From assembly GCA_030649055.1 (NCBI GenBank), contig JAUSGH010000019.1, positions 1,454 through 65,453 of the forward strand: 64,000 nt of DNA. Direction: 5' to 3'. Numbering within the stretch: position 1 is the stretch's first letter; every line of letters starts with the position of its first letter. The stretch comes from a bacterium (GTDB lineage: Bacteria > Patescibacteriota > Minisyncoccia > UBA6257 > JAUSGH01). The position numbers and the translations under genes were made by a program. The notes beneath the pieces are model-generated. The model saw only the letters and a program-made list of their open reading frames with translations. It searched no databases and was not told the DNA's origin. Of the stretch, positions 1,230 through 50,002 are shown piece after piece.

Positions 1230-1532
1230 ATGCTTTTCAAAGTTGTGTTTGGGTATTGGGTTGATTGGAGCGAACCGATATTTGACAGCGCTTCAAAGGA
1301 GGAAAAGGAAGAGGTTCGGAGTCGGCGCGAGGTATTTTGGGTGGAAGCAGAGGATGAGGACAAGGCACGCAGGTACGCACAACGATTTGAGGGGCTTGAA
1401 ACGAATTCATATGAAGGCCTCGGAGATTTACTGGAGATTTCGGTCGTTACTCCGGAAGAGGTTAAGAGCTTGCCGAGTCTTGTGGTGTATGAGAGGTATC
1501 TGCCAAAGAAAGAAAGGTTGTATTTGAACTGA
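1230..1532 (+). CDS. hypothetical 100-aa acidic protein inside low-GC insert
   Basis: Intact ORF in a region of lower GC than its flanks, followed by a hairpin terminator. No recognisable motif. Confidence 0.3.
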   Translation: MLFKVVFGYWVDWSEPIFDSASKEEKEEVRSRREVFWVEAEDEDKARRYAQRFEGLETNSYEGLGDLLEISVVTPEEVKSLPSLVVYERYLPKKERLYLN

Positions 1533-1553
1533 ACCGACGCTGCTCCAATAAAA

Positions 1554-1580
1554 AACTTCCTCTTTCTGAGGAAGTTTGCT
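1554..1580 (+). terminator. intrinsic terminator hairpin AACTTCCTC-tttct-GAGGAAGTT then TGCTTT
   Basis: Perfect 9-bp stem read directly from the sequence. Confidence 0.5.
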
Positions 1581-1593
1581 TTAATGAGGTCAT

Positions 1594-2985: not shown

Positions 2986-2990
2986 AGTGC

Positions 2991-3019
2991 AAAAACCCCG
3001 ACCTTGGCCGGGGTTTTTC
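2991..3019. terminator. bidirectional terminator hairpin between convergent genes (AAAACCCCGACC-tt-GGCCGGGG-TTTTT)
   Basis: A-run, GC stem, T-run. Confidence 0.5.
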
Positions 3020-3033
3020 GTTCGAATAGGTCG

Positions 3034-5283: not shown

Positions 5284-5364
5284 AAGAGTAACGTACAACC
5301 TACAACCAACAACGGACAACAGTCATAAGGTTCACGTTGTTTGTTGTCGGTTGTTTGTTGTTGG

Positions 5365-7501: not shown

Positions 7502-8618
7502 GTCTGTACGACCGGCGGGGCTTCTGCCGGTCAGAACATCGATTGAACCGACCGAACGTTCCGAACTGAATATTAGAAGCACTAAAAGTAAAAAAATGAA
7601 TGTAACATAGAATGTTTCTATTACGGTGAGCTTGTCGAACCGCTGGAAATTTTCTATGTTACCCCAAATCTGTTCCGAAGGTGGGCGTTTCGCCGACTGT
7701 GTGCACTCGTGCACATTCGAGGCGAGCCGCGAACCTTCTTTCGAGGATTTGATCCTGGTCCAGGATGAACGCTGGCGGCGTGGATAAGGCATGCAAGTCG
7801 AACGGTCGAGCGCACGTTGCGCTCGGTAGTGGCAAACGAGTTAGTAACGCCCTGGTACGTACCCCCGAGTCGGGCATAATTCCGCGAAAGCGGGACTAAT
7901 TCCCGATGGTGTCGCCTTAGGCGACTAAAGGAGCGATTCGCTCGGGGAGCGGCCTAGGTCCTATCAGCTAGTTGGTGAGGTAAAAGCTCACCAAGGCTAC
8001 GACGGGTAGGGGGGGTGAGAGCCCGATCCCCAACGAGGAGACTGAGACACGGCTCCTACACCTACGGGTGGCAGCAGTCGAGAATATTCGACAATGGGCG
8101 AAAGCCTGATCGAGCGACGCCGCGTGCAGGATGAAGGTCTTAGGATTGTAAACTGCTTTTCTACGGGAAGAAGTGTGCGTAGCACACAGTTTGTTAGTTC
8201 GTCAGTTACGCTTCGCTCTAGTTTATTAGTTGGTGAAACTAATTAACTAGCAAACGAACAGCGAGCGGAGCGAGCGGAACTAGTCAACTATGTGCTGCGC
8301 ACATTGACGGTACCGTGGGAATAAGGGGCGGCAAACTTCGTGCCAGCAGCCGCGGTAATACGAAGGCCCCGAGCGTTATCCGGATTCATTGGGCGTAAAG
8401 GGCGCGTAGGAGGTTCGGTCCGTCTCTCGTGAAATCTCGGAGCTCAACTCCGAACCCGCGGGGGAAACCGCCGAACTAGAGGGTGTTAGAGGCAGATGGA
8501 ACACACGGTGTAGGGGTGAAATCCGTTGATATCGTGTGGAACACCAAAGGCGAAGGCATTCTGCTGGGACACTCCTGACTCTGAGGCGCGAAAGCGTGGG
8601 GAGCAAAAAGGATTAGAT

Positions 8619-9690
8619 AAATCCCGTTCCGGCTCCAAAGAAACGGAACAAAGGGTGTCCCCTCCGACGGCGACGTCGGGGTGCGCATTCAGCTATATCG
8701 GGGAAGGCCGTCTTGTCAGGCGGTTAATCCCGAGGGAAGTTATTCAAGCCTCACTTTCGACTCTTTAATTATAGAGAAAAGTGGAGCTTGTGTAACCCCG
8801 TAGAGACTATGTAAGTAAGAAAATAGAAAATGACCAAGTCATTTTTGTTGGATCGATGTAAGGAAATTATTCTGGGTTCTTTGTTGGGTGATGGGTCCTT
8901 AAAGATCTATAAGCCCTACAAAAATGCCCGATTTTCCTTTCGACATTCGGTACATCAAAAAGATTATTTTTTCTGGAAAGTTGAAGAATTAAAAGAAATT
9001 TCCGGAGAGAAATCTTTTTGGGAACAAAAACCGAATAGTTTGGGAGGAGATATGTTGCGATACCAAAGTTTAGCATTAGAATTGCTTACGGAACTGCATC
9101 GGCTGACTTACGAGCATAATTGTCTCGTAATACGTCGAAAATGGCTGAACATGATGACGCCATTATCGCTTGCGATTTGGTGGCTTGATGATGGTTCGCT
9201 TATTGGCAATGGAAAGCGAGGTGTGTTTTGTACCGACCCGTTTTCGTTTCATGAACAAGAGATTTTATCGCAGTATTTACTCAAGGTTTGGAAAGTAAAA
9301 ACTGCGATTGGAAAAATTGTCCGCGAGCGGGAAGGAAAAAAAGTTGAGTACTATCGGCTATGGATTCGTTCAAGCGAAGAATTAAAAAAATTTCTTCGGA
9401 TAATCCTCCCCGAAATACCATCCGCATCTACATTGCCTAAAGTTCTTATTCTTTACAAAGATTCCCAATTACAGCAACGCTGGGTTTCTGAAGTTGTTGA
9501 AGCAACGCATTTTTCTCGAGAGATTATTGAAAGGTATCTTGCTGAGAAAAAAGCGAAATATAAGCGATTTCAGAAAATGATATAGTCCGATCCTCCGAGT
9601 AATCGGAGCATCTAATAGGTCTAAATCCCTAACGCTTAGGAATTAGGATTTAGAAATTAGAAATTGCAATTTTGCCAAGCAAAATTGTTG
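8619..9690 (+). mobile_element. group I intron in 16S rRNA (inserted after GGAUUAGAU, ends with G before ACCCUUGUAGUCC) carrying a homing endonuclease ORF
   Basis: Exon sequence diverges from the universal 16S at 8619 and resumes at 9691. The intron ends in G. Boundaries are accurate to about 1 nt. Confidence 0.75.
8830..9585 (+). CDS. LAGLIDADG homing endonuclease (two-motif, single-chain) encoded within the 16S intron
   Basis: ILGSLLGDGSL and AIWWLDDGSLIG motifs. Low-GC ORF inside the rRNA gene. Confidence 0.8.
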   Translation: MTKSFLLDRCKEIILGSLLGDGSLKIYKPYKNARFSFRHSVHQKDYFFWKVEELKEISGEKSFWEQKPNSLGGDMLRYQSLALELLTELHRLTYEHNCLVIRRKWLNMMTPLSLAIWWLDDGSLIGNGKRGVFCTDPFSFHEQEILSQYLLKVWKVKTAIGKIVREREGKKVEYYRLWIRSSEELKKFLRIILPEIPSASTLPKVLILYKDSQLQQRWVSEVVEATHFSREIIERYLAEKKAKYKRFQKMI

Positions 9691-9786
9691 ACCCTTGTAG
9701 TCCACGCCCTAAACGATGCTGATTAGCTGTCTCGAGTATCGACCCTCGGGGTGGCGTAGCTAACGCGTTAAATCAGCCGCCTGGGA

Positions 9787-9818
<32 letters not shown>

Positions 9819-9829
9819 AGACGGGGACT

Positions 9830-9864
<35 letters not shown>

Positions 9865-9942
9865 GTAAGCGAAGAACCTTACCAGGGCTTGAAATGCACT
9901 TGAAGACCGGCAGAAACGTCGGTCGTCTCTCAAGGACAAGTG

Positions 9943-9973
<31 letters not shown>

Positions 9974-10828
9974 ATCGTGAGACGTTCCCTTAAGTGGGGT
10001 AACGAGCGCAACCCCTCTCTGGTGTTATAAGTGTCACCGGAAACCGCCCCCGTTTTTGCCCGCAAGCAATGAAATGCTTGTGTTCAAAAACGGGGGAGGA
10101 AGGCGGGGATGACGTCAAATCCGCATGGCCCTCTGATGCCCTGGGCCACACACGTGCTACAATGGCCGTTACAAAGGGTTGCCAAGCCGCAAGGCGGAGC
10201 TAATCCCAAAAACACGGCCCCAGTTCAGATTGGAGGCTGCAACTCGCCTCCATGAAGTTGGAATCGCTAGTAATCGTAGGTCAGCTACACTACGGTGAAT
10301 ACGTTCTCGAGTCCTGTACTCACCGCCCGTCAAGCCAGCGGAGTCGGTAATACCTGAAGCCCAGCACTTTGTTCGCAACGCAGTTGTTAACAAAGTGCTG
10401 GGTAAGGGTAGGATCGATGATGAGGGCTAAGTCGTAACAAGGCACGCGTAGCGGAAGCTGTGCGTGGATCATCTACATAAACTTCTATAATTTTTGTTAT
10501 AGAACATAATAGATCGGAGCGCGTCGAAAGGCGCGCGTATGGCGTTCGTCGATGAGCCAAAAGTCTCGACGCGGACTTGCTTTCTGATGAAGCAAGGTTG
10601 GGATAACGCAAAAGTTTTTGATCCTTAGTTTTTACAAAAAATGCGAATGAGGCATTGCGCTCTCTTTCGCGTTTTTTGGTTGTCGTGTAACATAGAATAC
10701 ATGCCCCGTGCTACAACTTCGATGGCGCATAAGCGCGTAGAGATAGGCGAAGTCGGCGCGGAACAAGAGATGCTCTTAACATCAACGACAACCCATTATC
10801 AACATCAATCGAAGTTGTAGCACAGGGT

Positions 10829-15521: not shown

Positions 15522-15636
15522 TTTGAACATTGGACAAGTGACAATTGACAGGTGACCAACGGACGCGGGTGTTACTTCTCGTCCGTCGTCAAGTCAATGG
15601 TTAAATGTCAGTGGTCAAATGTTTCATAAACGCATT

Positions 15637-16741: not shown

Positions 16742-17701
16742 ATGGAAGCAACAAAGCAACAAAGCAATAAAGCAATAAAGCAAGGGAGCATTGCGGTAAA
16801 ACATAAAAGGGCAGTCTTGCTTCTTTGCTTCTTTGCTTCTTTGCTTTTTGTTATCCCTGCGCTCGCCGGAAACATCTCATCACAGCCGTCGGAGCGTTGG
16901 GCGTGGAGCGACGCGGTGGGCTGGATTGATTTCTTCGGCGTGACGGCAACTCCACCGGTGCTTCAGGGGTATGGGACGGGAAGCGCCATCGGAGAAGTGG
17001 CAATGGATTGCGCCACTACATCCATCGGCAATATTTGCGCAGTGAGTAATTTTAAGGTTGTGAATGACGGCTACGGTAATCTTTCGGGCTGGGCGTGGAG
17101 CGACGCCATCGGCTGGATCAGTTTTTGGTGCGGTAATGTTTCGCCGGGCGATTGCCAATCTTCAAATTATCAGGTGACGATTGATGGCGCCGGAGATTTC
17201 CACGGCTGGGCGTGGAATGACGCCATCGGCTGGATCAGTTTTAATTGTGATCATTCGGGCGATGGGGGGGCTAATCAGTGCACGACCTCAAGTTATAAAT
17301 TGAAGACGACGTATATTCCGGGGGTTCCGATGTATAGCGGTTCCTTGACCTCCAGCGTGTTTGACGCCGAGGTACCTGTTGCCTTGAATGCCATTCTTTG
17401 GAAGGGCACGCTGAACAGTCTTGTATCTTCGTCGGTGCGGTTCCGCGTCGCGTCTTCCAATTGCAGTAATGGGAAAACCAATCCGCCGGTTTGCGACGAC
17501 TCGGGAACGTGGGAGTTTTTGGGACCTAACAGCTCTACAACTGATTATTATATTCCCACCGGTCCGGACGCTCCCGCGGCGATTGATACGCGCGACCACA
17601 ACAACGTCCGCTACTTCCGTTACGAGGTTTTTATTGACTCCGATGTGTTCGGCGCGGTGACGCCCGAAATCAACGACATAATCATCAATTGGAGCCCATG
17701 A
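16742..17701 (+). CDS. secreted protein with three GWAW(S/N)DAIGWISF repeats, candidate pilus-associated adhesin
   Basis: Signal peptide KHKRAVLLLCFFASLLFVIPALA|GN. Repeats WAWSDAVGWIDFF, GWAWSDAIGWISFW, GWAWNDAIGWISFN. Octamer DNA repeats lie in codons 3-14. Confidence 0.6.
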   Translation: MEATKQQSNKAIKQGSIAVKHKRAVLLLCFFASLLFVIPALAGNISSQPSERWAWSDAVGWIDFFGVTATPPVLQGYGTGSAIGEVAMDCATTSIGNICAVSNFKVVNDGYGNLSGWAWSDAIGWISFWCGNVSPGDCQSSNYQVTIDGAGDFHGWAWNDAIGWISFNCDHSGDGGANQCTTSSYKLKTTYIPGVPMYSGSLTSSVFDAEVPVALNAILWKGTLNSLVSSSVRFRVASSNCSNGKTNPPVCDDSGTWEFLGPNSSTTDYYIPTGPDAPAAIDTRDHNNVRYFRYEVFIDSDVFGAVTPEINDIIINWSP

Positions 17702-18162
17702 TAATAAAACAAGAAAACAACCCTTCGACGCGGCTCAGGGCAGGGAAATCAAGAAAGCAACGGGGGGTAGTGGCGTTTTCAACTATACTGGTCCTTAGCG
17801 CCATCGTTGTTGAGGTGGGCATCGCGGCGAGTCTTCTGGTGTATTTTTTGAATCGTTCCAACTATGGTATCCGGCTCACCAATGAGGCGTTCGCGGCGGC
17901 GCGTGCCGGTGTTGACGATGCCATGATTCGCATCGTGCGCGCGAGGTTTTACCCATCGTGCGAAACAACATACAACCTTGTCGTCAGCGGCGCTGTAAGC
18001 GCGGATGTGACGATTCAAAATGTCGCGTGCAGTAGCGTTGCTGAAACGCAGTACATCATTTCCTCTACCGGAAAAGCGTTAGGGAAGCGCCGGACGCTTA
18101 CGGCAACGCTCGACATCAATCCCTCAACGCGGGAAGTCCGGGTGCTGAATATCGCTGAGTAG
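17689..18162 (+). CDS. pilus-associated membrane-anchored protein (PilX/pseudopilin-like N-terminal helix)
   Basis: KQRGVVAFSTILVLSAIVVEVGIAASLL single N-terminal TM. Confidence 0.4.
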   Translation: MEPMIIKQENNPSTRLRAGKSRKQRGVVAFSTILVLSAIVVEVGIAASLLVYFLNRSNYGIRLTNEAFAAARAGVDDAMIRIVRARFYPSCETTYNLVVSGAVSADVTIQNVACSSVAETQYIISSTGKALGKRRTLTATLDINPSTREVRVLNIAE

Positions 18163-18170
18163 AACTTGTT

Positions 18171-19682
18171 ATGATAAATATCAAAACCGCTTTCACTAAG
18201 TTTCTTCGTCTTGTGAGTCCCGCTACTCCCGTGGGCGGGCTTGAAATTTCCGATAATTTTCTGCGGTTTTTTGGCGTAGTGGCGGGCGTTCCTAAAACCG
18301 CGGCAATCCATCTTCCGCCCGGAGTTGTCACTGGAGGACGCGTTGCCGAGCCGGTGAATTTCCGCAAAGCGCTCCACGAACTCCGCGCGAATGTCGCAGG
18401 TGGCGAGGCGCGATGCCACGTGGTCGTCACCCTTGAGACGCCGGCCGTGTATAGCCAGATATTTTCCGTGCCCGTTGTCGCCCCTGATCGTCTCGGTGAG
18501 GCAGTGGAGCTGAATCTGCGGATGATTTCTCCTATGAGTGTTGATCGTGTGTACGCGGATGCCGAACGCGTGGGATCCGGCGCCTCCGGAGAAACGGAAT
18601 ACCTCGGAGCGTTTTTGGAGCGCGCGATTGCCGACGAGTTTAGCGCGGCATTGGCGAGCTCCGGTTTTGTGCTATTGGCTTTGGAATTTACCGGGCTTTC
18701 CGTTGCCCGCCTTATCGGCACGCTCGGCGTTGGGTATGTCAAAGGTGAATCCTATCTTGTATTGCGTGTTTCCGCCGGAGGTCTTGAGTTGCTCATACTC
18801 CGGAACGGTAATTTGCACTTTGACCATTTTTCTCCGTGGGGTGAGGTCGGCGCGGATGGCGCGCGTGCGATTGATGATGCCCGTTTTGAAGACGTGCTCC
18901 GTCGCGAAGTGCAGCGCGTCCTGAATTTTTACTCCGGCAAGTGGCCGGGGAGTTTCAAGGGCGTTATTCTTCTTGCGCGGGATGTCGCGCCGCGCGTGGA
19001 GCGTGTGCTTACGCAATATTTTGACCTTGCGGTCATGCCGCTTGCCGTGACGCAGTTCGGAGATGTTATTCCGTCGTTTGCCGGCGCCTTGGGCGCGTAT
19101 CTTCGTGGCAGTATTTCCCGTGAAAGCGACACATTCATCAGCGTTGCTCCGGTGGGTACGGAAGAGGCGTTCGCGTGGAGTCGTTTACTGCGTTTTCTCG
19201 CGTTTTGGCGCAATGTGGCGCTGACTGCCTGTAGCTTTCTGTTTCTTGTCACACTTGTCGCGGCAAGTATCTCCGCGCGTATTGAGACGTCGCTGCGCAC
19301 CACTTCCACGCTTGTTCCGCCGGGCGTGGACGCGAATGAAGTGGCAATGTTAGAGAGCCAGGCAAAAGCGTTTAATTCCGATCTCGGCGCGGCGCTCCGC
19401 GCGCGCGGATCGGCAAAAGTTTTATCGCCGCTGTTTACGGAACTCCGTAAAATTTCGGGTGAAACCGTGACGCTTGAACGTGTTTCGTTTTCGCCGTCCG
19501 GTGGTGAGATGAATATTTCGGGGCGCGCCATTTCCGAACTTGCGGCGATTAACTTCAAAAACGCCTTGGCGCGTCGGGAGGGATTTACCGCGGTGAATTT
19601 ACCGCTCGCGAATATCGTTCCTGATTCTGACGGCAAGGTGACGTTCCAGCTTACGCTGCGCGTGGAAAAAGAGGCGCCGTAG
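18171..19682 (+). CDS. PilM-PilN fusion (actin-like ATPase-fold domain, TM helix, periplasmic PilN-like domain)
   Basis: N-terminal ~330 aa is PilM-like. TM LRFLAFWRNVALTACSFLFLVTLVAASI near residue 340, then a ~150-aa C-terminal domain. Confidence 0.5.
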   Translation: MINIKTAFTKFLRLVSPATPVGGLEISDNFLRFFGVVAGVPKTAAIHLPPGVVTGGRVAEPVNFRKALHELRANVAGGEARCHVVVTLETPAVYSQIFSVPVVAPDRLGEAVELNLRMISPMSVDRVYADAERVGSGASGETEYLGAFLERAIADEFSAALASSGFVLLALEFTGLSVARLIGTLGVGYVKGESYLVLRVSAGGLELLILRNGNLHFDHFSPWGEVGADGARAIDDARFEDVLRREVQRVLNFYSGKWPGSFKGVILLARDVAPRVERVLTQYFDLAVMPLAVTQFGDVIPSFAGALGAYLRGSISRESDTFISVAPVGTEEAFAWSRLLRFLAFWRNVALTACSFLFLVTLVAASISARIETSLRTTSTLVPPGVDANEVAMLESQAKAFNSDLGAALRARGSAKVLSPLFTELRKISGETVTLERVSFSPSGGEMNISGRAISELAAINFKNALARREGFTAVNLPLANIVPDSDGKVTFQLTLRVEKEAP

Positions 19683-19703
19683 CCGCTTCATTCCGCTACG
19701 ACG

Positions 19704-20195
19704 TTATTGCGGTATTTCGGGCGCGCCGAAAAGCTCGTTCGCCGCTTTTTGGAATACATCCATGAACTGTTTTTTTCCGGTCGCGGAGATTTTTTTGAGC
19801 ACGAACGTTTCCGCCTTTGGGTGGCGCGCGCCTTCTGTCTTCGGTCGGATGCCGACACGTAGACGCGTGAAGTCTGTTGACCCCGTGGCGTCAAAAACGC
19901 TTTGTACGCCTTTGTGTCCGGCGGCGCCACGAGCGGTAGAAATTTTATATTCGCCGATATATATGTCGGATTCGTCGTGAACGATGAGTGTGTGTTCGGG
20001 CGAGGCAAAAGTTTTTTTCATCATAGCGCCGACGGATGCGCCGGATTCGTTCATATAGCCCGCGGTCTTTTTCGCTGCCAGCGCGGGATAATGCTTCTCA
20101 AGGTAGTCAACAAAAAGATGTCCGACGTTGTGGTAGGTGTTGGCATACTGGGGATCGTTGTTTCCGAGGCCGATAATCAGTTTGAATGGCTTCAT
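19704..20195 (-). CDS. pth: peptidyl-tRNA hydrolase
   Basis: ORF 19704..20246 trimmed to MKPFKLIIGLGNNDPQYANTYHNVGH, the Pth signature. Confidence 0.85.
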   Translation of the reverse strand: MKPFKLIIGLGNNDPQYANTYHNVGHLFVDYLEKHYPALAAKKTAGYMNESGASVGAMMKKTFASPEHTLIVHDESDIYIGEYKISTARGAAGHKGVQSVFDATGSTDFTRLRVGIRPKTEGARHPKAETFVLKKISATGKKQFMDVFQKAANELFGAPEIPQ

Positions 20196-20298
20196 GTCCG
20201 ATGTCGGATGTCCGATGTCCGAGGTTGACCGTCCGTCACCCGTCACCCGACACTCGTCATATTTGCTTTAATGCTTTTATTCTAGTAGAATATGATGT

Positions 20299-20859
20299 AT
20301 GAAGCAATTCTTCCTGGCATCGCGCGAGATTTTGGAGGTTGTGCTCATTTCGCTCTTTACGGTATACATCATCCGCTCTTTTCTTGTGCAGCCGTTTTTG
20401 GTCTCCGGGGCTTCCATGGAGCCGAATTTTTCCGACGGTAATTATCTCCTGATCGATGAACTGACGTACCGTTTTCGTCAGCCGGCGCGCGGCGAGGTGA
20501 CGGTGTTCCGCTACCCCGGGGACGTCAAAACATTTTACATTAAGCGCATCGTCGGGTTGCCCGGTGAGCGCGTGGTGATTCAGGATGGCGTGGTGCGTGT
20601 ATACAACAGCGAGTATCCCGGAGGATTGTTGCTTTCCGAGGAGTACATCGCGCCGAGCGTCACTACCATCGGTGATGTGGACCGGACGCTTGATACCGAT
20701 GAGTACTTTGTGCTGGGTGATAACCGTTACTTCAGCTTTGACTCGCGCAACTGGGGCGTCCTTCCGAAGAGCGATATCATCGGCGTTGTGCGGTTGCGGT
20801 TGCTTCCGATTCGCGCCGCGCAGACGTTTACGGTGCCGAGTTATGAGGGGGGACAATAA
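20299..20859 (+). CDS. lepB: signal peptidase I
   Basis: SGASMEP catalytic Ser box, RIVGLPGE, GDNRYFSFDSR. Confidence 0.85.
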   Translation: MKQFFLASREILEVVLISLFTVYIIRSFLVQPFLVSGASMEPNFSDGNYLLIDELTYRFRQPARGEVTVFRYPGDVKTFYIKRIVGLPGERVVIQDGVVRVYNSEYPGGLLLSEEYIAPSVTTIGDVDRTLDTDEYFVLGDNRYFSFDSRNWGVLPKSDIIGVVRLRLLPIRAAQTFTVPSYEGGQ

Positions 20860-20860
20860 G

Positions 20861-20924
20861 GCAACGAAGCAAAAGAGCAACGAAGCAAAAAAGTAAGAAA
20901 ACAATAAAGCAACGAAGCAAAAAA
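20861..20924 (+). repeat. eight tandem 8-bp units GCAAMRAA (gcaacgaa gcaaaaga gcaacgaa gcaaaaaa gtaagaaa acaataaa gcaacgaa gcaaaaaa) filling the lepB-hisS spacer
   Basis: Read directly. Begins 2 nt after the lepB stop and ends 1 nt before the hisS ATG. Confidence 0.85.
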
Positions 20925-20925
20925 T

Positions 20926-22299
20926 ATGCCGCAAAAAGATAAAAAAGTATCAGAAAAAGGAAAGGTGAAAGCGCCGTTTCAGTCGCCGAAGGGTATGCAC
21001 GATATCTTGCCGTTGGAGGAGCCGTATTGGGAGAAGCTCCGCCGTGATTTGCGCGCGGTCGCGGAGGTGTACAATTTTCGCCGTATTGACACGACATTGT
21101 TGGAAACAACGGACCTTTTTGAGCGGTCGCTTGGCGCCACGAGCGACATTGTTGAAAAACAAATGTTTTCGTTCCGCACGAAAGGCGGAGATATGTTAGT
21201 CTTGCGCCCGGAAGGGACTGCTTCCGTAATGCGCGCGTACATCCAGCACGGGATGAGCCACATGGGGACTCCGCTGAAGCTTTATTACATCGGCCCGATG
21301 TTCCGCTATGAACAGCCGCAGGCCGGACGGTTGCGCCAGTTGCATCAGGCGGGGTTTGAAATTCTTGGCGGCGATGAAGACGCGGTCTACGACGCGCAGA
21401 TCATGCTTGCGTGTTACCGTTTTATTGAGTCGACGAAGGTGAAGCAGCTCATGGTGCACATCAATTCCATCGGCTGCAAAAATTGCCGCCCGAATTACCG
21501 TAAAAAACTCACCGACTACTATACCGGACGCGGTGGAAATACTAATAAGGAAAAATTGATTTGTAAGGACTGTCGCCGTCGGCTGGAAACAAACCCGTTG
21601 CGTTTGTTGGATTGCAAAGTGTCCGGGTGCATTGAGCTCAAAAAGGACGCCCCCGTTATGCTGGATCAGCTCTGCAGTTTTTGCAAAAACCATTTCAAGA
21701 ACGTTTTGGAATATGTGGAAGAGCTGAAGATTCCGTATACGCTGGATCACGCTCTTGTCCGCGGTTTGGATTACTATAACCGCACCGTGTTTGAAATCTT
21801 TACAGAAGGTGAGGCGCCGGCTGATCCGAAAGCCGAAGGGGCTCTGAAGGGCGTGCCGCGAAAATTTGACTTTGCCTTGGCGGGCGGCGGACGGTTTGAT
21901 TATCTTGCCGAAATGATCGGCGGCAGGCCTACGTCCGCGGTTGGTGGCGCGGTGGGACTTGACCGCCTCATTGAAGTCATGAAGGCATTTGGCACGGCTC
22001 CGCTCCGTACGATAGAAAAAGTATTTTTGATTCACATCGGCGACCTCGCGAAGAAAAAAAGTTTGGCGATTATTGAACTGCTTCACCATGAGGGCATCAC
22101 CACCGCCGAAACATTGGGCAAGGAATCGTTGAAGGCCCAGCTCCGTTCCGCGGACAAAGGCGGCGCTCCGATGGCACTTATCTTCGGACAGAAAGAAGCG
22201 TTGGAGGGATCCATTATCATCAGAGATCTCCGCACCGGCGCGCAAGAAACCGTGCCGCTTCATAAAATGGCGGGGGAAGTGAAGCGCCGGTTGAAATAG
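20926..22299 (+). CDS. hisS: histidyl-tRNA synthetase with cysteine-rich insertion
   Basis: HDILP, motif 2 FRYEQPQAGRLRQ, HisRS anticodon-binding C-domain. About 60-aa insert with CKNC...CKDC...C..C...CSFC. Confidence 0.85.
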   Translation: MPQKDKKVSEKGKVKAPFQSPKGMHDILPLEEPYWEKLRRDLRAVAEVYNFRRIDTTLLETTDLFERSLGATSDIVEKQMFSFRTKGGDMLVLRPEGTASVMRAYIQHGMSHMGTPLKLYYIGPMFRYEQPQAGRLRQLHQAGFEILGGDEDAVYDAQIMLACYRFIESTKVKQLMVHINSIGCKNCRPNYRKKLTDYYTGRGGNTNKEKLICKDCRRRLETNPLRLLDCKVSGCIELKKDAPVMLDQLCSFCKNHFKNVLEYVEELKIPYTLDHALVRGLDYYNRTVFEIFTEGEAPADPKAEGALKGVPRKFDFALAGGGRFDYLAEMIGGRPTSAVGGAVGLDRLIEVMKAFGTAPLRTIEKVFLIHIGDLAKKKSLAIIELLHHEGITTAETLGKESLKAQLRSADKGGAPMALIFGQKEALEGSIIIRDLRTGAQETVPLHKMAGEVKRRLK

Positions 22300-22333
22300 G
22301 ACGTATACGTCCTGTAGGACCTATTGGTCGTAT

Positions 22334-22741
22334 ATGAACTGTCTCTTCTGCAACATCGCAACCAAAGAAATTTCCGCGCGCATTGTTTATGAAGACGATG
22401 CAACGCTCGCGTTTCTGGACATTCATCCGCGGACGATGGGGCACACGGTCATCATTCCCAAAACGCATACCGAAAATATCGTGATGGCACCGGAGGCGCT
22501 CATCACCCCGACCTTTTTGACAGTGAAGAAGATAACTGTTATGCTTCAACACACGTTGAGCCCCAAAGGATTCACTATCGGCATCAATCACGGGCGGATC
22601 AGCGGGCAGGCGGTGGATCACTTGCACGTGCATGTTATCCCGCGCTACGAGGGGGACGGCGGCGGTTCAATCCATAGCGTCGTCAACTACTCTTCACTAT
22701 TATCATTAGACGAGGTCGCAGCAAAAATTAAGCAGAATTAA
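22334..22741 (+). CDS. HIT-family (histidine triad) hydrolase
   Basis: CLFCNI zinc motif and HLHVHVIPR histidine triad. Confidence 0.8.
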   Translation: MNCLFCNIATKEISARIVYEDDATLAFLDIHPRTMGHTVIIPKTHTENIVMAPEALITPTFLTVKKITVMLQHTLSPKGFTIGINHGRISGQAVDHLHVHVIPRYEGDGGGSIHSVVNYSSLLSLDEVAAKIKQN

Positions 22742-22748
22742 TAATACT

Positions 22749-22973
22749 ATGTCTGTCGAAGTACGTAAAAAAGAAGGGGAGTCCGCGAGCAGCTTGCTCT
22801 ACCGCTTTACAAAAAAAGTGCAGCAGAGTGGCGTATTAAAAGAAGCAAAGAAGCGTCGATTCCATAAGCGCGCTCAGAGCGGTTTGAAGCGCAAGCTTTC
22901 CGCCCTGCACCGCGTAGGAAAGAAAGTGGAGATGGATCGGATGCGGAAATTGGGATTGACCCCCGAGAGATAG
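22749..22973 (+). CDS. rpsU: 30S ribosomal protein S21
   Basis: MSVEVRKKEGE...LLYRFTKKVQQSGVLKEAKKRRFHKRAQSG resembles S21 [26 protein letters not shown]. Confidence 0.75.
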   Translation: MSVEVRKKEGESASSLLYRFTKKVQQSGVLKEAKKRRFHKRAQSGLKRKLSALHRVGKKVEMDRMRKLGLTPER

Positions 22974-22980
22974 AGAGGTA

Positions 22981-23069
22981 GCTTCCTTAGCTTTTAGCTT
23001 CATTAGAAGGGAGGTTGTACGGTCTAATGAAGCTAACGAAGCTAACCCAGCTAACCATCTAACGAAGCC
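22981..23069. repeat. inverted arms built from 9-bp units: GCTTYMTTA x3 (22981-23006) and TAAYSNAGC x5 (23025-23069)
   Basis: TAGCTTCATTAG/CTAATGAAGCTA perfect 12-bp stem. Units share AACGAAGC with the hisS-upstream octamers. Confidence 0.7.
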
Positions 23070-23074
23070 ATCGT

Positions 23075-23527
23075 ATGTTAAAAGAAAAAATCACCGCGGA
23101 TATTAAAGAGGCGATGAAATCCGGAGCCGCAGAGCGGCTTGGAGTTTTGCGCATGCTTTCATCCGCTATTGGCAATCGGAAGATTGAAAAGCGCGCGAAG
23201 ACCGGCAAAGACGAAGATTTGACCGATGATGAGGTTATGGAAGTCATCGGCAAAGAAGCAAAAAAACGCAAAGAATCCATCGCGGTGTTTGTTTCCGGCG
23301 GACGGAGCGACCTCGCGGCGCAGGAGGAAAAAGAGCTCGTTATTCTTGGCGCATATCTTCCCGCGCAGATGAGCGAAGCGGATACCGTGGCGGCGGTTAC
23401 CCGCATTGTTGATGCCGCGCCGGTTAAGGAATTAGGTCCGGTCATGAAGGCGGTGATGGCGGAGCTCAAGGGAAAAGCGGACTCCTCGCTTGTTTCACGT
23501 CTTGTAAAAGAGCGGCTTGGAGCGTAA
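23075..23527 (+). CDS. GatB/YqeY-domain protein
   Basis: MLKEKITADIKEAMKSGAAERLGVLRMLSSAI YqeY N-terminal signature. Confidence 0.75.
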   Translation: MLKEKITADIKEAMKSGAAERLGVLRMLSSAIGNRKIEKRAKTGKDEDLTDDEVMEVIGKEAKKRKESIAVFVSGGRSDLAAQEEKELVILGAYLPAQMSEADTVAAVTRIVDAAPVKELGPVMKAVMAELKGKADSSLVSRLVKERLGA

Positions 23528-23532
23528 TACGT

Positions 23533-23919
23533 ATGCTGCAGATCATACTCACTGCAGAAAAAAAATTTGGACGCTATGCATCGCGCGCTCGCGCGATGTT
23601 GCGTTTCTTGGGGCGGCTCGTAAAGGAAAAAGCCGCGGTAGAGGTGCATCTTGTGGGGAACGCGGTGATGAACAAAAATGTGTTGTCTTATGTTTCACCG
23701 CGGAAATTTTTTCGTCCGGATATTTCCGGCAAGGCGCTTGGAGAGATTTATTTGAACCCGACCTACATTGCCGCGCACGGCGAAGATGTTGATCTTATGC
23801 TTGTGCACGGCTTTTTGCATTTGCTGGGGTATGACCACAAACGGAAAAGTGATAGAATAAAGATGGAAAAGAAAGAAGACGCGTTGTTGAAGCAATTTTA
23901 CCGGAGCAAAAGTTCGTAG
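23533..23919 (+). CDS. ybeY: rRNA maturation endoribonuclease YbeY
   Basis: HGFLHLLGYDH, the H3xH5xH metal site. Confidence 0.8.
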   Translation: MLQIILTAEKKFGRYASRARAMLRFLGRLVKEKAAVEVHLVGNAVMNKNVLSYVSPRKFFRPDISGKALGEIYLNPTYIAAHGEDVDLMLVHGFLHLLGYDHKRKSDRIKMEKKEDALLKQFYRSKSS

Positions 23920-23927
23920 AAATTTTT

Positions 23928-25160
23928 ATGAAATCGCGATTCATCGTCGGGTTGGACATCGGATCGCTCGCCATCAAAGCTGCCGTGCTCGAACAAAAGA
24001 GCGACGGTAGCTTAGTGTTGCAATACGCGACTAAAGCTCCGGTGGAAGGTATGCGCAAAGGAATGGTGGATGACTTGGGCGCGGTGACGCGGTCGGTCAA
24101 CGTCGTCTTGGCGGATATTCGGCAAATCCACAAAAACGCGGCAAAACATATTTACCTCAGCATCGGCACGCCGAACGTCCGCGTGCAGATATCTAAGGGA
24201 ATCGTCGCTGTTTCCCGCGCGGATTTTGAAATTTTTAATGATGACATCGGGCACGCGATTGAAGCGGCGGAGTCCGTGAAGCTTCCGGCGAACCGGATGG
24301 TGATTCACACTATCACCGATGAGTTTGTGGTGGATGATGTCGCGGATATCAAGGACCCGTTGGGCATGATCGGGCATCGGCTGGAAGCAAAAAGTATGAT
24401 TATCGACGCGTTCGCTCCGGCGGTGAAAAATATCACGCGCGCGGTGGAGGTCGCGGGTGGTGGCATCGCGGGTCTTATTTTTGGACCTATCGCCGGCGCG
24501 CGGTCGGTGTTCAGTAAAAATCAGCGGGAGCTCGGCACGGTACTTCTTGACATCGGATTCAGCACCACGGGCATCGCGCTGTATCAGGAGCACAAACTGC
24601 TACATACGAATATTTTTCCGTATGGCTCTGGCCATATTACCAATGACCTGACGCACGGACTTAAAATTTCCGTGGAAGCCGCGGAGGGAGTGAAGCTTGC
24701 CTATGGCGCCGCGTTTGCGAAAGATGTGTCCGTTCGCGAGACTGTGGATATCTCTAAATTTGAGCCGCACGCGCGGGGGAGCATCACTCGGCGATTCATC
24801 GCGGACATCGTGGAAGCCCGGCTTGCAGAAATTTTGGAGTTCGTCAATAATGACCTTAAGGCGGTGAATAAGTCCGGTCAGCTTCCCGGGGGCGTGGTGC
24901 TTGTGGGTGGCGGGGCAAAAACTCCGGGACTTGTTGACCTTGTCCGACAAGAGTTGCGTTTGCCCACTCGGGTTGGCATTCCGGATCTTTCTATGTTCCA
25001 GATTCCCTCTGCGGAGCTTGCCGCCACGGTGGAAGACCCTGAATACGCGTGTGCCCTGGGATTAGTGCTCTGGGGTGTGGATAAGTCCGGCGAAGGAGTG
25101 CGCGTAAAGGGAGATGCTTTCGGCTGGTTGAAAAAACTGGTGAGTTACATCGTGCCTTGA
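23928..25160 (+). CDS. ftsA: cell division protein FtsA
   Basis: GLDIGSLAIKAAV N-terminus, actin-fold motifs, DIGFSTTGIALY. TGA stop. Confidence 0.85.
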   Translation: MKSRFIVGLDIGSLAIKAAVLEQKSDGSLVLQYATKAPVEGMRKGMVDDLGAVTRSVNVVLADIRQIHKNAAKHIYLSIGTPNVRVQISKGIVAVSRADFEIFNDDIGHAIEAAESVKLPANRMVIHTITDEFVVDDVADIKDPLGMIGHRLEAKSMIIDAFAPAVKNITRAVEVAGGGIAGLIFGPIAGARSVFSKNQRELGTVLLDIGFSTTGIALYQEHKLLHTNIFPYGSGHITNDLTHGLKISVEAAEGVKLAYGAAFAKDVSVRETVDISKFEPHARGSITRRFIADIVEARLAEILEFVNNDLKAVNKSGQLPGGVVLVGGGAKTPGLVDLVRQELRLPTRVGIPDLSMFQIPSAELAATVEDPEYACALGLVLWGVDKSGEGVRVKGDAFGWLKKLVSYIVP

Positions 25161-25466
25161 ACCCATCTCAAAAATCCCTCACAGTCGCGTTCGTAGCGAT
25201 TTCCTCGCATCCGCTAGGCGCGAGGAGGAGGTTGTAACCTCTGGGTTACGTCGACGACGAGCAACGCCGCGGGGTGAGGAAATCGCACGAACCCGAAGGG
25301 ATACGGCCAATTCCGGCGATTCCGGCGTCGCTCCTCCTCGGAGTATCAAGAGGATACACCTTCGGTCGTCGCTCCTAGGACTCGCCGGAATTGGCCAGTA
25401 TCGCGGCGGGAGAGATTTTCGAGATGGGTTCTAAAGTAATCGCAAATAATGCGAATCAGGCTCTTT

Positions 25467-25510
25467 AATAATGCGAATGGGCGCATCGAAGCCATTTGCA
25501 TTATTTTTTG
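25467..25510 (+). terminator. intrinsic terminator AATAATGCGAATGGGC-gcgcatcgaa-GCCATTTGCATTATT-TTTTT inside the ftsA-ftsZ spacer
   Basis: About 14-bp stem with one G-U pair, then T6. Lies ~300 nt after ftsA and ~75 nt before ftsZ. Confidence 0.5.
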
Positions 25511-25584
25511 CAGGCGTTCATGATGAAAATAATAGGATGCATGAGATAAATAGCCCCTGAGCTTGTCGAAGGGCTACGATATAT

Positions 25585-37939: not shown

Positions 37940-37950
37940 GCGCCGATAAC

Positions 37951-37986
37951 AAAAACCCGGTCGCCTGAGGCGACCGGGTTTTTTGT
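37951..37986 (+). terminator. intrinsic terminator CCCGGTCGCC-tgag-GGCGACCGGG-TTTTTT
   Basis: Perfect 10-bp GC stem plus T-run. Confidence 0.8.
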
Positions 37987-38011
37987 TGCGCGAGTTTGTT
38001 ATAATAGAAGT

Positions 38012-49308: not shown

Positions 49309-49968
49309 ATGAAATTAATGAATATATTATTTCAAGATTTTTTCGCTAATCTTTCCGGCGTGTTTCGCGGGCGGAACTTGTATTGGCACTTGCTCGCCGT
49401 TCTGTTGACGCTCGGGCTGGTTCTTTCCGGATTTGATTGGTATTACGCGACTATAACCCGTGGCGGCGTTGTCGCAAAAATTTTATTCCCCGCAGTTTTT
49501 TTCGGCGGTCTTTTGCCGATTATTTTGCCGCTCGTTATCGTGACGCTCGGGGCGGTGAAGCGGAGCGCTTATACCATCCGTGCCGGCTGGGCGACGGGGC
49601 AAGCGGCCATCGTCGGATTACTTGCTTCATTTTTCTATAAAGCACTCACGGGCAGGGCGCATCCGGAATTGATATCGGCGGCGCTTGGCGACATTTCGCG
49701 CGTGTTCCATTTCGGATTTTTACGTGGCGGAGTATTTTGGGGCTGGCCATCTTCGCACACTACCGTTGCCTTTGCCGTCGCGGCGGCGCTTGCGACGCTG
49801 TATCCGAAAAATACATACGTCGTATATCTCGGATTTTTGTATGCGCTGTACGTCGGATTTGGCGTTTCTATGAGCATCCACTGGTTTTCGGATGCCGTCG
49901 CCGGCGCTATTATCGGCATCGTTGCCGGGGTAACCATCGGCAAAAGTTTTCTTAATCCGAAAATATAA
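49309..49968 (+). CDS. PAP2-family phosphatase (undecaprenyl-diphosphatase/phosphatidate phosphatase-like)
   Basis: KALTGRAHP, PSSHT, SIHWFSDAVAG motifs (KxxxxxxRP, PSGH, SRxxxxxHxxxD). Confidence 0.75.
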   Translation: MKLMNILFQDFFANLSGVFRGRNLYWHLLAVLLTLGLVLSGFDWYYATITRGGVVAKILFPAVFFGGLLPIILPLVIVTLGAVKRSAYTIRAGWATGQAAIVGLLASFFYKALTGRAHPELISAALGDISRVFHFGFLRGGVFWGWPSSHTTVAFAVAAALATLYPKNTYVVYLGFLYALYVGFGVSMSIHWFSDAVAGAIIGIVAGVTIGKSFLNPKI

Positions 49969-50002
49969 CATTCCGATATTCTTGAGAATGTCGGAATGTT
50001 AT
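49965..50002. repeat. palindromic element copy C (ATAACATTCCGATATTCTTGAGAATGTCGGAATGTTAT, inverted loop orientation)
   Basis: Embeds the TAA stop of the PAP2 gene. One arm mismatch (GATATT vs GACATT). Confidence 0.8.

What the first reader, a model, noticed from the sequence alone, without database searches (positions are those of the whole stretch)
20861..23069. Family of 8-9-bp AACGAAGC-type tandem repeats placed exactly at gene 5' ends
Eight GCAAMRAA units fill the whole lepB-hisS spacer, from stop+2 to ATG-1. Between rpsU and the YqeY gene, three GCTTYMTTA units face five TAAYSNAGC units as inverted arms, with a perfect 12-bp core stem. The same octamer occurs in both orientations inside the 16742 gene. 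The elements share the AACGAAGC / GCAA-AA core and always sit immediately upstream of, or across, a start codon. This suggests a common regulatory role (UTR structure, spacing-dependent promoter activity or phase variation) rather than random simple sequence.
Basis: seen in the sequence. Interest (0 to 1): 0.55.

Follow-up and report, generated by a model that had tools for sequence, protein, structure and literature searches.

The report
Short tandem-repeat hairpins filling gene spacers
The repeats are real, but they are local examples of a lineage-wide habit of these tiny groundwater (CPR/Parcubacteria) bacteria: the gaps between genes are filled with fast-changing arrays of 7-9-base units, usually as two inverted arms that fold into a hairpin, much like the long-known but still unexplained STRR repeats of cyanobacteria.

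Summary
The repeats exist as described and are far beyond chance. They are not a dedicated AACGAAGC regulatory family. The window comes from a Harrisonbacteria-like CPR bacterium whose 16S rRNA lacks the anti-Shine-Dalgarno core.

Tandem arrays of 7-9-nt units fill many stop-to-start spacers, with unrelated units at other loci: rpmE>rplY, pilC>pilin, pth|lepB and hisS>HIT. Most arrays come as two inverted arms that fold into hairpins of -30 to -42 kcal/mol. The lepB>hisS array is a single purine-rich arm with no structure.

Arrays of period 7-8 are about six times denser in related CPR contigs than in other bacteria. Of 19 adjacent array pairs, 13 are inverse complements.

Eight relatives were compared at orthologous spacers. 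Some have minimal spacers of 1-36 nt. Others carry different units or other palindromic elements in the same slot. The elements are therefore fast-evolving and individually dispensable.

Best reading: STRR-like or REP-like intercistronic repeats made by slippage and palindrome copying. They are tolerated, or mildly useful, because hairpins keep stop and start codons adjacent and A-rich arrays keep the start codon unstructured. Phase variation is plausible only for the 8-nt array in the signal-peptide coding region of the gene at 16742.

The parts
20861..20924 (+). Single-arm purine-rich tandem array (8 x 8 nt, or better 4 x 16 nt: GCAACGAAGCAAAAGA) filling the lepB>hisS spacer. It is unstructured.
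   Evidence: MFE -5.1 kcal/mol; periodicity reached by 0/5000 shuffles; A+G 0.80; the -40..+20 window around the hisS AUG folds at only -1.0 kcal/mol.
22971..23061 (+). Two-arm tandem-array hairpin in the rpsU>yqeY spacer. The palindrome TAGAGAGGTAGCT...AGCTAACCATCTA begins with the rpsU stop codon TAG.
   Evidence: -36.8 kcal/mol, z -4.35; 5' base at stop-2, 3' base at start-14.
22981..23005 (+). 5' arm of the rpsU>yqeY hairpin: GCTTCCTTA GCTTTTA GCTTCATTA.
23025..23068 (+). 3' arm of the rpsU>yqeY hairpin: TAATGAAGC TAACGAAGC TAACCCAGC TAACCATC TAACGAAGC. The perfect 13-bp core stem pairs 22995-23007 with 23023-23035.
   Evidence: lag-9 autocorrelation 0.62, reached by 0/5000 shuffles.
16746..16783 (+). 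AAGCAACA x4.8 array. It is the 5' arm of a hairpin and lies in the N-terminal (n-region) codons of the secreted pilus-operon protein that starts at 16742.
   Evidence: similar to the lepB>hisS array, E = 2e-4.
16817..16850 (+). TTGCTTCT x4.4 array. It is the 3' arm of the same hairpin and encodes the signal-peptide hydrophobic core LLLCFFASLLF.
   Evidence: -41.9 kcal/mol; same length as orthologs; 8 codon changes relative to L003 make it periodic; L007 has TTCTTGTT x3.8 at the same place.
20194..20259 (.). ATGTCCG x4.1 and CCGTCAC x3.9 arrays in the divergent pth|lepB spacer, between the pth start codon (20193-20195, minus strand) and the lepB promoter.
   Evidence: relatives have a 36-44-nt minimal spacer or other elements in this slot.
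20263..20298 (+). Conserved lepB promoter-like block (TTGCTT ... TAGAAT, then 7 nt, then ATG). It implies a leaderless or near-leaderless lepB-hisS... transcript.
   Evidence: conserved across 8 lineages while the adjacent array is not; promoter assignment is inferred from the consensus.
5284..5364 (-). Same class with an unrelated unit: ACAAC-type and GTTGT-type arms forming a hairpin that fills the rpmE>rplY spacer. The palindrome TAAC...GTTA starts with the rpmE stop codon.
   Evidence: (-29.6 kcal/mol, z -4.5).
15522..15618 (+). Same class with an unrelated unit: GACAAGT and GTCAATG arms forming a hairpin from stop+0 to start+1 in the pilC>pilin spacer.
   Evidence: (-35.3 kcal/mol, z -3.55).
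22300..22333 (+). hisS>HIT spacer with 9-nt periodicity (GACGTATAC GTCCTGTAG GACCTATTG GTCGTAT) and a small hairpin.
   Evidence: lag-9 autocorrelation 0.64, reached by 0/5000 shuffles.
49965..50002 (+). One of five copies of the H palindrome TAACATTCCGAYATTCT-N4-AGAATRTYGGAATGTTA, with two 8-nt units per arm. The upstream stop TAA is its first 3 nt and the downstream ATG lies in its 3' arm. Other copies: 46663-46702, 48949-48982, 49247-49288, 50284-50319.
   Evidence: 18 pairs; 5 show compensatory double changes.
10466..10479 (+). 16S rRNA 3' tail GGAUCAUCUACAUA. The canonical anti-Shine-Dalgarno core CCUCC is replaced by UCUAC.

Best explanation
The three loci are local members of a lineage-wide class of intercistronic repeat elements in Harrisonbacteria-like Parcubacteria. 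The class consists of tandem arrays of 7-9-nt units.

Origin (inferred). The arrays arise and turn over by replication slippage. Where two inverted arrays are present, the arms are kept complementary at the DNA level. This could happen by hairpin-templated (quasi-palindrome) copying. It could also happen by spread of small palindromic elements that land on the TA of stop codons.

Expression (inferred). The arrays are transcribed inside operon mRNAs of an organism that has no anti-SD and mostly leaderless or SD-less genes.

Two-arm versions. These are rpsU>yqeY, the 5' end of 16742, rpmE>rplY and pilC>pilin. They fold into long interrupted hairpins that consume the whole spacer. The upstream stop and downstream start therefore stay side by side at the hairpin base. 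This is compatible with termination-reinitiation and with protection of the mRNA.

Single-arm version. The purine-rich lepB>hisS array keeps the roughly 60 nt around the hisS AUG unstructured, which allows SD-independent internal initiation.

What is shown: the sequence, periodicity, folding potential, distribution and turnover. What is inferred: the slippage/template-switch origin and the effects on translation. Each element is individually dispensable. None is a specific regulatory switch.
For: Periodicity and hairpins are far beyond chance.

Ten of 14 arrays lie in the 12.7% of the window that is non-coding (P = 7e-7).

The period spectrum peaks at 7-8 nt. Density is 15.4 + 7.1 arrays per 100 kb in close and CPR-like loci, against 2.6 + 1.2 in other bacteria. 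Mann-Whitney p = 4e-4.

Thirteen of 19 adjacent array pairs are inverse complements and none are direct.

Sense and antisense strands fold equally well, with few G-U pairs, so the symmetry is at the DNA level.

Orthologous spacers in 8 lineages:
- Minimal forms exist: pth|lepB 36 nt, rpsU>yqeY 9-15 nt, yqeY>ybeY 5 nt, hisS>HIT 1-10 nt.
- Different lineages hold different units or other palindromic families in the same slot.
- The adjacent lepB promoter block stays conserved.

The main hairpin spans from stop (-8..+6) to start (-21..+8) in about 20 spacers.

The H palindrome has 5 copies, with the stop and start codons inside the stem and 5 compensatory pairs.

The 3' arm of the 16742 hairpin is homologous coding sequence made periodic by 8 clustered codon changes without any change in length.

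The region around the hisS AUG is unstructured in all 7 lineages that have a spacer, and purine-rich in 6 of 7, although the units differ.

The anti-SD is absent. SD-like motifs are rare, and TATAAT-like boxes sit 6-10 nt before many ATGs.

Cyanobacterial STRR 7-bp repeats form hairpins between co-transcribed genes. Proposed roles there are transcript stability or translational coupling (PMC2670836).
Against: There are no expression, RNA-end or ribosome data, so every functional step is inferred.

The GCGTTYA hairpin family of relatives shows no compensatory substitutions. Selection on RNA structure is therefore unproven for array-type hairpins.

The slippage/template-switch origin is inferred from patterns, not observed.

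Termini of the form TA...TA are also simply what a palindrome extended by 2 bp looks like.

The elements are absent from orthologous spacers of close relatives. This fits neutrality as well as it fits a weak function.

Units are shared between loci within a genome: AACGAAGC at two spacers in the window, and GCGTTYA at 5 loci in 21 kb of L003. Pure in-situ slippage does not explain this.
Confidence: 0.55

Rival explanations
1. The hairpins are functional RNA 'punctuation'. They are selected as processing or coupling devices in an organism without SD/anti-SD pairing. One version has them cut out, for example by RNase III, to release leaderless downstream cistrons. Another version has them physically juxtapose stop and start codons so that terminating ribosomes reinitiate.
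For: The hairpins span from stop to start. In the H family the stop and start codons are inside the stem, and copies show compensatory changes. The anti-SD is lost and many genes appear leaderless. The same slot, pth|lepB, is filled by three unrelated hairpin families in different lineages. This 'variable but structured' pattern matches what is proposed for STRR.
Against: Close relatives manage with 5-15-nt spacers at the same junctions. The GCGTTYA family shows no covariation. There is no preference for the sense strand and few G-U pairs. No processing data exist.
Confidence: 0.17
2. The arrays are phase-variation (contingency) loci. Gain or loss of units switches or tunes expression of the downstream gene.
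For: The 16742 array is inside codons, has an 8-nt unit (not a multiple of 3), is 96% pure, and encodes the signal-peptide core of a secreted protein in a type IV pilus operon. Relative L007 has a different, perfect 8-nt array (TTCTTGTT x3.8) at the same place. This is the design of the Neisseria opa CTCTT repeats (own knowledge). Copy number differs between species at lepB>hisS: 8, about 4 and 8 units.
Against: The intergenic arrays precede essential housekeeping genes (hisS, yqeY, rplY, pth). The units are imperfect (67-80% matches), which lowers slippage rates. Assemblies of the same species are identical across all arrays. No promoter elements flank the arrays.
Confidence: 0.1
3. A sequence-specific cis-regulatory family with an AACGAAGC / GCAAMRAA core is recognised by one factor or RNA, which coordinates hisS, yqeY and the 16742 gene.
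For: AACGAAGC occurs only in the two spacers, 5 of 5 occurrences. The 16742 5' arm and the lepB>hisS array are similar (E = 2e-4). A GCTAAC core recurs in arrays of three lineages.
Against: Chance sharing of one 8-mer between two arrays is roughly 0.1 (my estimate). Other arrays in the window use unrelated units. Orthologous spacers in relatives have other units or no element. The GCTAAC sharing is not significant in a permutation test. The three genes have no functional link.
Confidence: 0.06
4. The repeats are chance simple sequence or an assembly artefact.
For: Logan contigs break at the perfect 8-nt arrays: L001 starts at 16817 and L007/L008 end in the array. Such repeats therefore do disturb assemblers.
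Against: No shuffle out of 5000 reaches the observed periodicity. Fold z-scores are about -4. An independent contig is identical. The same architecture appears in many samples and lineages.
Confidence: 0.02

Closest known systems
STRR (short tandemly repeated repetitive) heptamer sequences of heterocystous cyanobacteria, including the hairpin-forming arrays between hupS-hupL and in nif intergenic regions
   Same: Both are tandem arrays of about 7-nt units confined to intergenic DNA. Both often form hairpins between co-transcribed genes. Both are variable in sequence between close relatives yet 'structured'. Both show genome-typical units at several loci. Function is unknown in both, with transcript stability or translational coupling proposed (PMC2670836; Mazel 1990 and Jackman & Mulligan 1995 from own knowledge and reference lists).
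   Different: The phylum is different (CPR/Parcubacteria). Units here are 7, 8 and 9 nt, and many different units occur per genome. The arrays fill the whole stop-to-start spacer. Some arrays extend into coding sequence. The organism lacks the anti-SD.
REP/BIME/REPIN palindromic elements of proteobacteria
   Same: Both are short imperfect palindromes dispersed in spacers of operons and transcribed as hairpins. Copies keep their symmetry through compensatory changes (H family).
   Different: No RAYT or other transposase is present in the 64 kb. The arms are built from tandem short units. Copy numbers are known only locally.
Rickettsia palindromic elements (RPE) and TA-targeting MITEs (IS630/Tc1-like)
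   Same: Both are palindromic elements present or absent at orthologous sites. Termini read TA...TA, often using the TA of a stop codon. One H copy lies in frame inside the TspO gene.
   Different: No target-site duplication could be proven. No parent transposase was found. The elements are much shorter (36-110 nt), and the in-frame case is ambiguous.
Simple-sequence contingency loci (Neisseria opa CTCTT in the signal-peptide region; Haemophilus 5'-UTR SSRs, PMC12721329)
   Same: A tandem unit whose length is not a multiple of 3 lies inside the signal-peptide coding region of a surface or secreted protein (16817-16850). Arrays also lie in 5' UTRs.
   Different: Most arrays here precede essential genes, are imperfect, and show no length polymorphism in the available assemblies.
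Borg tandem repeats (PMC9879509)
   Same: Both are A-rich, fast-evolving, lineage-specific tandem repeats in intergenic regions and at gene ends of uncultivated groundwater or sediment microbes.
   Different: Borg units are longer and perfect. About half lie in ORFs, with unit lengths divisible by three, and no inverted-arm architecture is reported.

Membership tests
Cyanobacterial STRR | Tandem amplification of a roughly 7-nt unit | tested here: met
   TRF periods are 7, 8 and 9 in the window. The spectrum peaks at 7 and then 8 in related loci. The arrays of the finding itself have periods of 8-9 nt.
Cyanobacterial STRR | Confined to intergenic or non-coding DNA | tested here: met
   Ten of 14 arrays lie in the 12.7% of the window that is non-coding (P = 7e-7). 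Exceptions are 16746-16850, 39875-39906 and 47033-47067.
Cyanobacterial STRR | A few consensus units dispersed at many loci genome-wide | tested here: inconclusive
   Only 64 kb is available. The window has at least 6 different units. L003 has GCGTTYA at 5 loci in 21 kb.
Cyanobacterial STRR | Hairpin potential between co-transcribed genes | tested here: met
Cyanobacterial STRR | Occurrence in (heterocystous) cyanobacteria | tested here: not met
   The best HisS hits are Candidatus Harrisonbacteria / Parcubacteria. The resemblance is therefore an analogy, not membership.
REP/REPIN | Dispersed imperfect palindrome of 20-40 nt with conserved symmetry | tested here: met
   The H family has 5 copies and 5 compensatory pairs. 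The array hairpins are longer (80-120 nt).
REP/REPIN | Cognate RAYT (IS200/IS605-like Y1 transposase) in the genome | tested here: inconclusive
   None was found among all ORFs of the window. The rest of the genome was not available.
TA-targeting MITE | Terminal inverted repeats flanked by a duplicated TA, with empty sites in relatives | tested here: inconclusive
   Termini read TA...TA (TAGA..TCTA, TAAC..GTTA, TAGACTCC..GGAGTCTA), and empty or minimal sites exist in relatives. The flanks are too diverged to demonstrate a duplication.
Phase-variable simple sequence repeat locus | Length polymorphism of the tract within or between closely related populations | tested here: not met
   L001 is identical to the window, and L003 = L004 = L005 = L006. 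These are consensus assemblies, probably from few populations, so the test is weak.
Phase-variable simple sequence repeat locus | High-purity tract placed so that unit gain or loss shifts the reading frame or changes promoter spacing | tested here: inconclusive
   Met for 16817-16850: 8-nt unit, 96% pure, inside codons. Not met for 20861-20924 and 22981-23068: 67-80% pure with no promoter hexamers.
Intrinsic terminator | GC-rich stem followed by a U-run | tested here: not met
   No terminator-like hit falls in 20860-20925 or 22974-23074. Canonical terminators exist elsewhere, for example at 2986-3033 and 37940-38011.
Known structured RNA (T-box, ribosomal-protein leaders, any Rfam family) | Covariance-model match | tested here: not met
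   Only the 16S rRNA and a weak group I intron hit were found in the window at E <= 0.5.

The most novel reading that the evidence does not exclude
In CPR bacteria that have lost the anti-Shine-Dalgarno sequence, tandem-unit hairpins act as operon 'punctuation'. They span exactly from the stop codon of one gene to the start codon of the next. In this way they either hand terminating ribosomes directly to the next AUG or are excised to create leaderless cistrons. Single-arm A-rich arrays serve as unstructured landing pads. The repeats would then be a lineage-specific solution to SD-less translation of polycistronic mRNAs. They would be continually rebuilt by slippage and palindrome copying.
Probability: 0.15. 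Interest if true: 0.8.

Novelty: new variant of a known kind. Interest (0 to 1): 0.5.

Why it matters
The result would show that a large, uncultivated bacterial radiation shares with cyanobacteria a peculiar way of building intergenic DNA: short tandem units arranged as hairpins. The function of such repeats has been open since 1990. In this case the organism lacks SD/anti-SD pairing, which gives a concrete, testable hypothesis about how internal cistrons are translated.

There are also practical consequences:
- The arrays break short-read assemblies of CPR genomes.
- They mislead start-codon calling. The pth and 16742 starts and the HIT starts differ between gene callers.
- They are potential strain markers.

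I found no paper in the searchable library that describes tandem repeats in Parcubacteria intergenic regions.

Tried and rejected
- Genome-contig scan with HisS. It returned only an unrelated Cohnella locus, so no close GTDB representative was found.
- Metagenome scan with a HisS alignment. The patterns were too generic and no close relatives were gained. The 80 loci were reused as a background set.
- Copy-number variation between assemblies of the same species. None was found, but the samples are probably not independent.
- Exact-protein look-ups of S21 and YqeY, intended to find other strains. Neither is on record.
- Sense versus antisense folding and G-U counts, as a test for RNA-level selection. 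No asymmetry was found.
- Covariation in the GCGTTYA hairpin family of L003/L011. No compensatory pairs were found, and the alignment register within the arrays is ambiguous.
- Rfam at gathering and at E <= 0.5. Nothing matched the arrays.
- Promoter and terminator scan. Nothing was found in the two spacers.
- Search for a transposase or RAYT among all window ORFs. None was found.
- Shared k-mers between array units of 38 lineages. GCTAAC is shared by three lineages, but this is not significant.
- DNA-uptake-sequence idea. Rejected because units differ between loci within the genome.
- T-box leader for hisS. Rejected because the spacer is 66 nt, unstructured, and has no Rfam hit.
- TspO in-frame insertion of an H copy. 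The alignment to solved TSPO structures shows only a loop 6 residues longer, so the result is ambiguous.
Full report
**1. What is there**

The window (52% GC) carries a 16S rRNA gene with a LAGLIDADG-bearing insertion. Its HisS has its best hits in Candidatus Harrisonbacteria / Parcubacteria. It is therefore a CPR bacterium.

Gene order around the finding is pth(-) | lepB > hisS > HIT > rpsU > yqeY > ybeY > ftsA > ftsZ.

- **lepB>hisS.** Eight 8-nt units at 20861-20924, which TRF scores better as four 16-nt units. They run from stop+2 to 2 nt before the hisS ATG.
- **rpsU>yqeY.** Three GCTT..TTA units (22981-23005) face five TAA...AGC units (23025-23068), with a perfect 13-bp core stem.
- **Gene at 16742.** AAGCAACA x4.8 (16746-16783) faces TTGCTTCT x4.4 (16817-16850).

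Periodicity is never reached in 5000 shuffles, except for the short, indel-containing 5' arm of the rpsU>yqeY element. The two-arm loci fold at -36.8 and -41.9 kcal/mol with z about -4.3. The lepB>hisS array folds at only -5.1 kcal/mol.

An independent Logan contig is 100% identical over 16817-25238. The repeats are therefore not an artefact of this assembly.

**2. The family claim**

AACGAAGC occurs five times in 64 kb, all in the two spacers. The 16742 5' arm resembles the lepB>hisS array (E = 2e-4). The rpsU>yqeY element is linked to the others only by that 8-mer. I estimate about a 0.1 chance of such sharing arising by accident.

The same architecture occurs in the window with unrelated units:
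- ACAAC/GTTGT between rpmE and rplY (5284-5364, minus strand; -29.6 kcal/mol, z -4.5).
- GACAAGT/GTCAATG between pilC and a pilin gene (15522-15618; -35.3 kcal/mol).
- ATGTCCG/CCGTCAC in the divergent pth|lepB spacer (20194-20259).
- A 9-nt periodic hisS>HIT spacer (22300-22333).

A 36-40-nt palindrome (the H family) has two 8-nt units per arm and five copies in the window. In two of the copies (49965-50002 and 50284-50319), the upstream stop TAA forms the first three bases and the downstream ATG lies in the 3' arm. Its copies show five compensatory pair changes.

Ten of the 14 arrays with period 7-9 lie in the 12.7% of the window that is non-coding (P = 7e-7).

**3. Relatives**

Contigs of eight lineages (HisS identity 94% down to 67%) keep the same gene order. 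Their spacers show the following.

- **Minimal versions of each spacer exist.**
  - pth|lepB is 36-44 nt and is nothing but the conserved lepB promoter block.
  - rpsU>yqeY is 9-15 nt.
  - yqeY>ybeY is 5 nt, and this minimal form is the one in the window.
  - hisS>HIT is 1-10 nt.
- **Other lineages fill the same slots with different elements.**
  - GCGTTYA/TRAACGC arrays occur in L003 and L011.
  - A MITE-like palindrome, TAGACTCCGC...GCGGAGTCTA, occurs in L095, L011 and L007.
  - ACGAAT/ATTTGTA arrays occur in L097.
- **In pth|lepB the promoter part is almost identical between lineages, while the array part is completely different.**
- **lepB>hisS carries 7-8-nt tandem units in most of the lineages that have a spacer, always with different units.** The -40..+20 window around the hisS AUG is unstructured in all seven lineages that have a spacer (0 to -3.6 kcal/mol). 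It is purine-rich in six of them.

The elements are thus fast-evolving and individually dispensable. Their kind and physical character persist: a hairpin, or an unstructured A-rich tract.

**4. Breadth**

I used 80 metagenome loci fetched with a HisS profile as a background.
- Arrays with period 7 and 8 occur at 15.4 and 7.1 per 100 kb in the close and CPR-like set, against 2.6 and 1.2 in the rest.
- The difference between loci with HisS identity of at least 43% and those at or below 41% has Mann-Whitney p = 4e-4.
- Of 19 adjacent array pairs, 13 are inverse complements of each other and none are direct. Examples are AGCTCTTT...AACGAGCT, GGTTTACT...CCAGTAAA and AAAAACC...TTTTGGT.

This is a property of a whole clade and is not specific to the three genes.

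**5. Context that bears on mechanism**

- The 16S 3' tail reads GGAUCAUCUACAUA where the consensus is GGAUCACCUCCUUu.
- SD-like motifs are rare. Many ATGs sit 6-10 nt after a TATAAT-like box, which suggests leaderless or short-leader mRNAs.
- Canonical terminators exist elsewhere in the window. None is predicted in the two spacers, and no sigma-70-like promoter is either.
- No Rfam family matches the arrays.
- In about 20 long spacers of these lineages the main hairpin begins within -8..+6 nt of the stop codon and ends within -21..+8 nt of the start codon.
- Sense and antisense strands fold equally well, and G-U pairs are few. The complementarity is therefore a DNA-level symmetry.
- The GCGTTYA family shows no compensatory substitutions. 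The H family does.
- No transposase is encoded in the window.

**6. The 16742 gene**

The 3' arm is genuine coding sequence. It encodes the hydrophobic core of the signal peptide (LLLCFFASLLF), which is homologous to LLFSIFASLLF in L003 and has the same length.

Eight codon changes relative to L003, five synonymous and three conservative, make it 8-nt periodic and complementary to the 5' arm. Relative L007 has a different perfect array (TTCTTGTT x3.8) at the same position.

Clustered changes that perfect a quasi-palindrome are what intramolecular template switching produces (established mechanism, own knowledge). Selection for pairing is the alternative explanation.

The unit is 8 nt and lies inside codons of a secreted protein in a type IV pilus operon. 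Slippage here would shift the reading frame. An opa-like phase switch is therefore possible for this one locus.

**7. Explanation**

*Most likely (0.55).* These are STRR-like/REP-like intercistronic repeats.
- They are generated by slippage and palindrome copying, possibly with spread of small palindromes onto the TA of stop codons.
- They are transcribed within operons.
- Hairpins keep the stop and start codons adjacent, and A-rich arrays keep the start codon accessible in an SD-less organism. This would explain why they are tolerated, or why they are mildly useful.
- The sequence facts, distribution and turnover are shown. The origin and the effect on translation are inferred.

*Rivals.*
- Selected RNA punctuation or coupling devices: 0.17.
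- Phase variation: 0.10, essentially for the 16742 array only.
- A specific AACGAAGC regulon: 0.06.
- Artefact or chance: 0.02.

**8. Comparison with known systems**

The closest match is the cyanobacterial STRR. These are 7-bp tandem repeats that form hairpins between co-transcribed genes such as hupS-hupL. Their function is unknown, and proposals include stabilising transcripts or coupling translation (PMC2670836). [quoted passage not shown]

Membership proper fails on taxonomy. It is also unclear on the criterion of 'a few units dispersed genome-wide'.

REP/REPIN, RPE or TA-MITEs, contingency SSRs and Borg tandem repeats each share some features. Each fails or could not be tested on a defining one (see the membership table).

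A full-text search found no paper combining Parcubacteria, tandem repeat and intergenic.

I rate this a new variant of a known kind, of moderate interest.

Noticed in passing
window 10466-10479: The 16S rRNA 3' tail is GGAUCAUCUACAUA, with the canonical anti-SD core CCUCC replaced by UCUAC. TAGA, GTAG and ATAG are the most enriched 4-mers in the 22 nt upstream of start codons (about 5x). This might reflect a matching altered SD (GUAGA), or simply stop codons and AT-rich spacers.
   Followed up: partly
window 46663-46702, 48949-48982, 49247-49288, 49965-50002, 50284-50319: Five copies of a 36-40-nt palindrome, TAACATTCCGACATTCT-N4-AGAATGTCGGAATGTTA. Stop and start codons are embedded in the stem, and copies show compensatory changes. 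One copy (48949-48982) lies in frame inside a TspO/TSPO gene loop, which resembles Rickettsia palindromic elements.
   Followed up: partly
window 7737-10479 (ORF 8830-9585; 9336-9609): The 16S rRNA gene is 2743 nt long. It contains an insertion encoding a LAGLIDADG_2 homing endonuclease and gives a weak group I intron hit. A TTAGAAA x4.3 array lies at 9636-9665 inside the insertion.
   Followed up: partly
window 1230-2343: The RF1 (prfA) ORF at 1594-2343 aligns to the family profile only from position 105, so the N-terminal domain is missing. The preceding 100-aa ORF (1230-1532) has no detectable family. It is separated from the RF1 ORF by a 61-nt spacer with a perfect hairpin (AAAAACTTCCTC...GAGGAAGTTT). 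The gene may be split or truncated.
   Followed up: partly
window 25161-25584: The ftsA>ftsZ spacer is 424 nt and very highly structured (MFE -184 kcal/mol). In L003 it is 176 nt and in L007 82 nt. In L011 it holds a GGTTNGAG x8.7 array.
   Followed up: no
L095:664-809 and 2813-2909; L011:4193-4312; L007:5526-5640: A MITE-like palindrome of about 100 nt, TAGACTCCGCTAATATRCGAATCAAGCGCGAATATA...TATTCGCGGAGTCTA, is present at different junctions in different lineages. Twice it begins with the upstream stop codon TAG.
   Followed up: partly
window 47033-47067 (minus-strand gene 46701-48431): An 8-nt array (AATGAAAC x4.4) lies in frame in the linker between the Pif1-like helicase core and the C-terminal HTH_40 domain.
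   Followed up: no
window 23034-23059; L003 arrays; L018/L021 arrays: A GCTAAC/GTTAGC core recurs in array units of three lineages, as 9-, 7- and 8-nt units (GAAGCTAAC, CGCTAAC, GAGCTAAC). The sharing was not significant in a permutation test, but it suggests an old unit family.
   Followed up: partly
L001 start (= window 16817); L007/L008 contig ends: Short-read (Logan) contigs break exactly at the perfect 8-nt arrays in the signal-peptide region of the 16742 ortholog. Gene callers also disagree on starts next to arrays: pth is called at 180 aa versus about 160 aa, and the HIT and ftsZ starts differ between L003 and L004.
   Followed up: partly
window 63152-63305: The spacer before the HD-domain gene contains a long hairpin (-64 kcal/mol) whose stem includes tandem CATTCGTT/GAATGAAC units. 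The sense strand folds 12 kcal/mol better than the antisense strand, with 9 G-U pairs.
   Followed up: no
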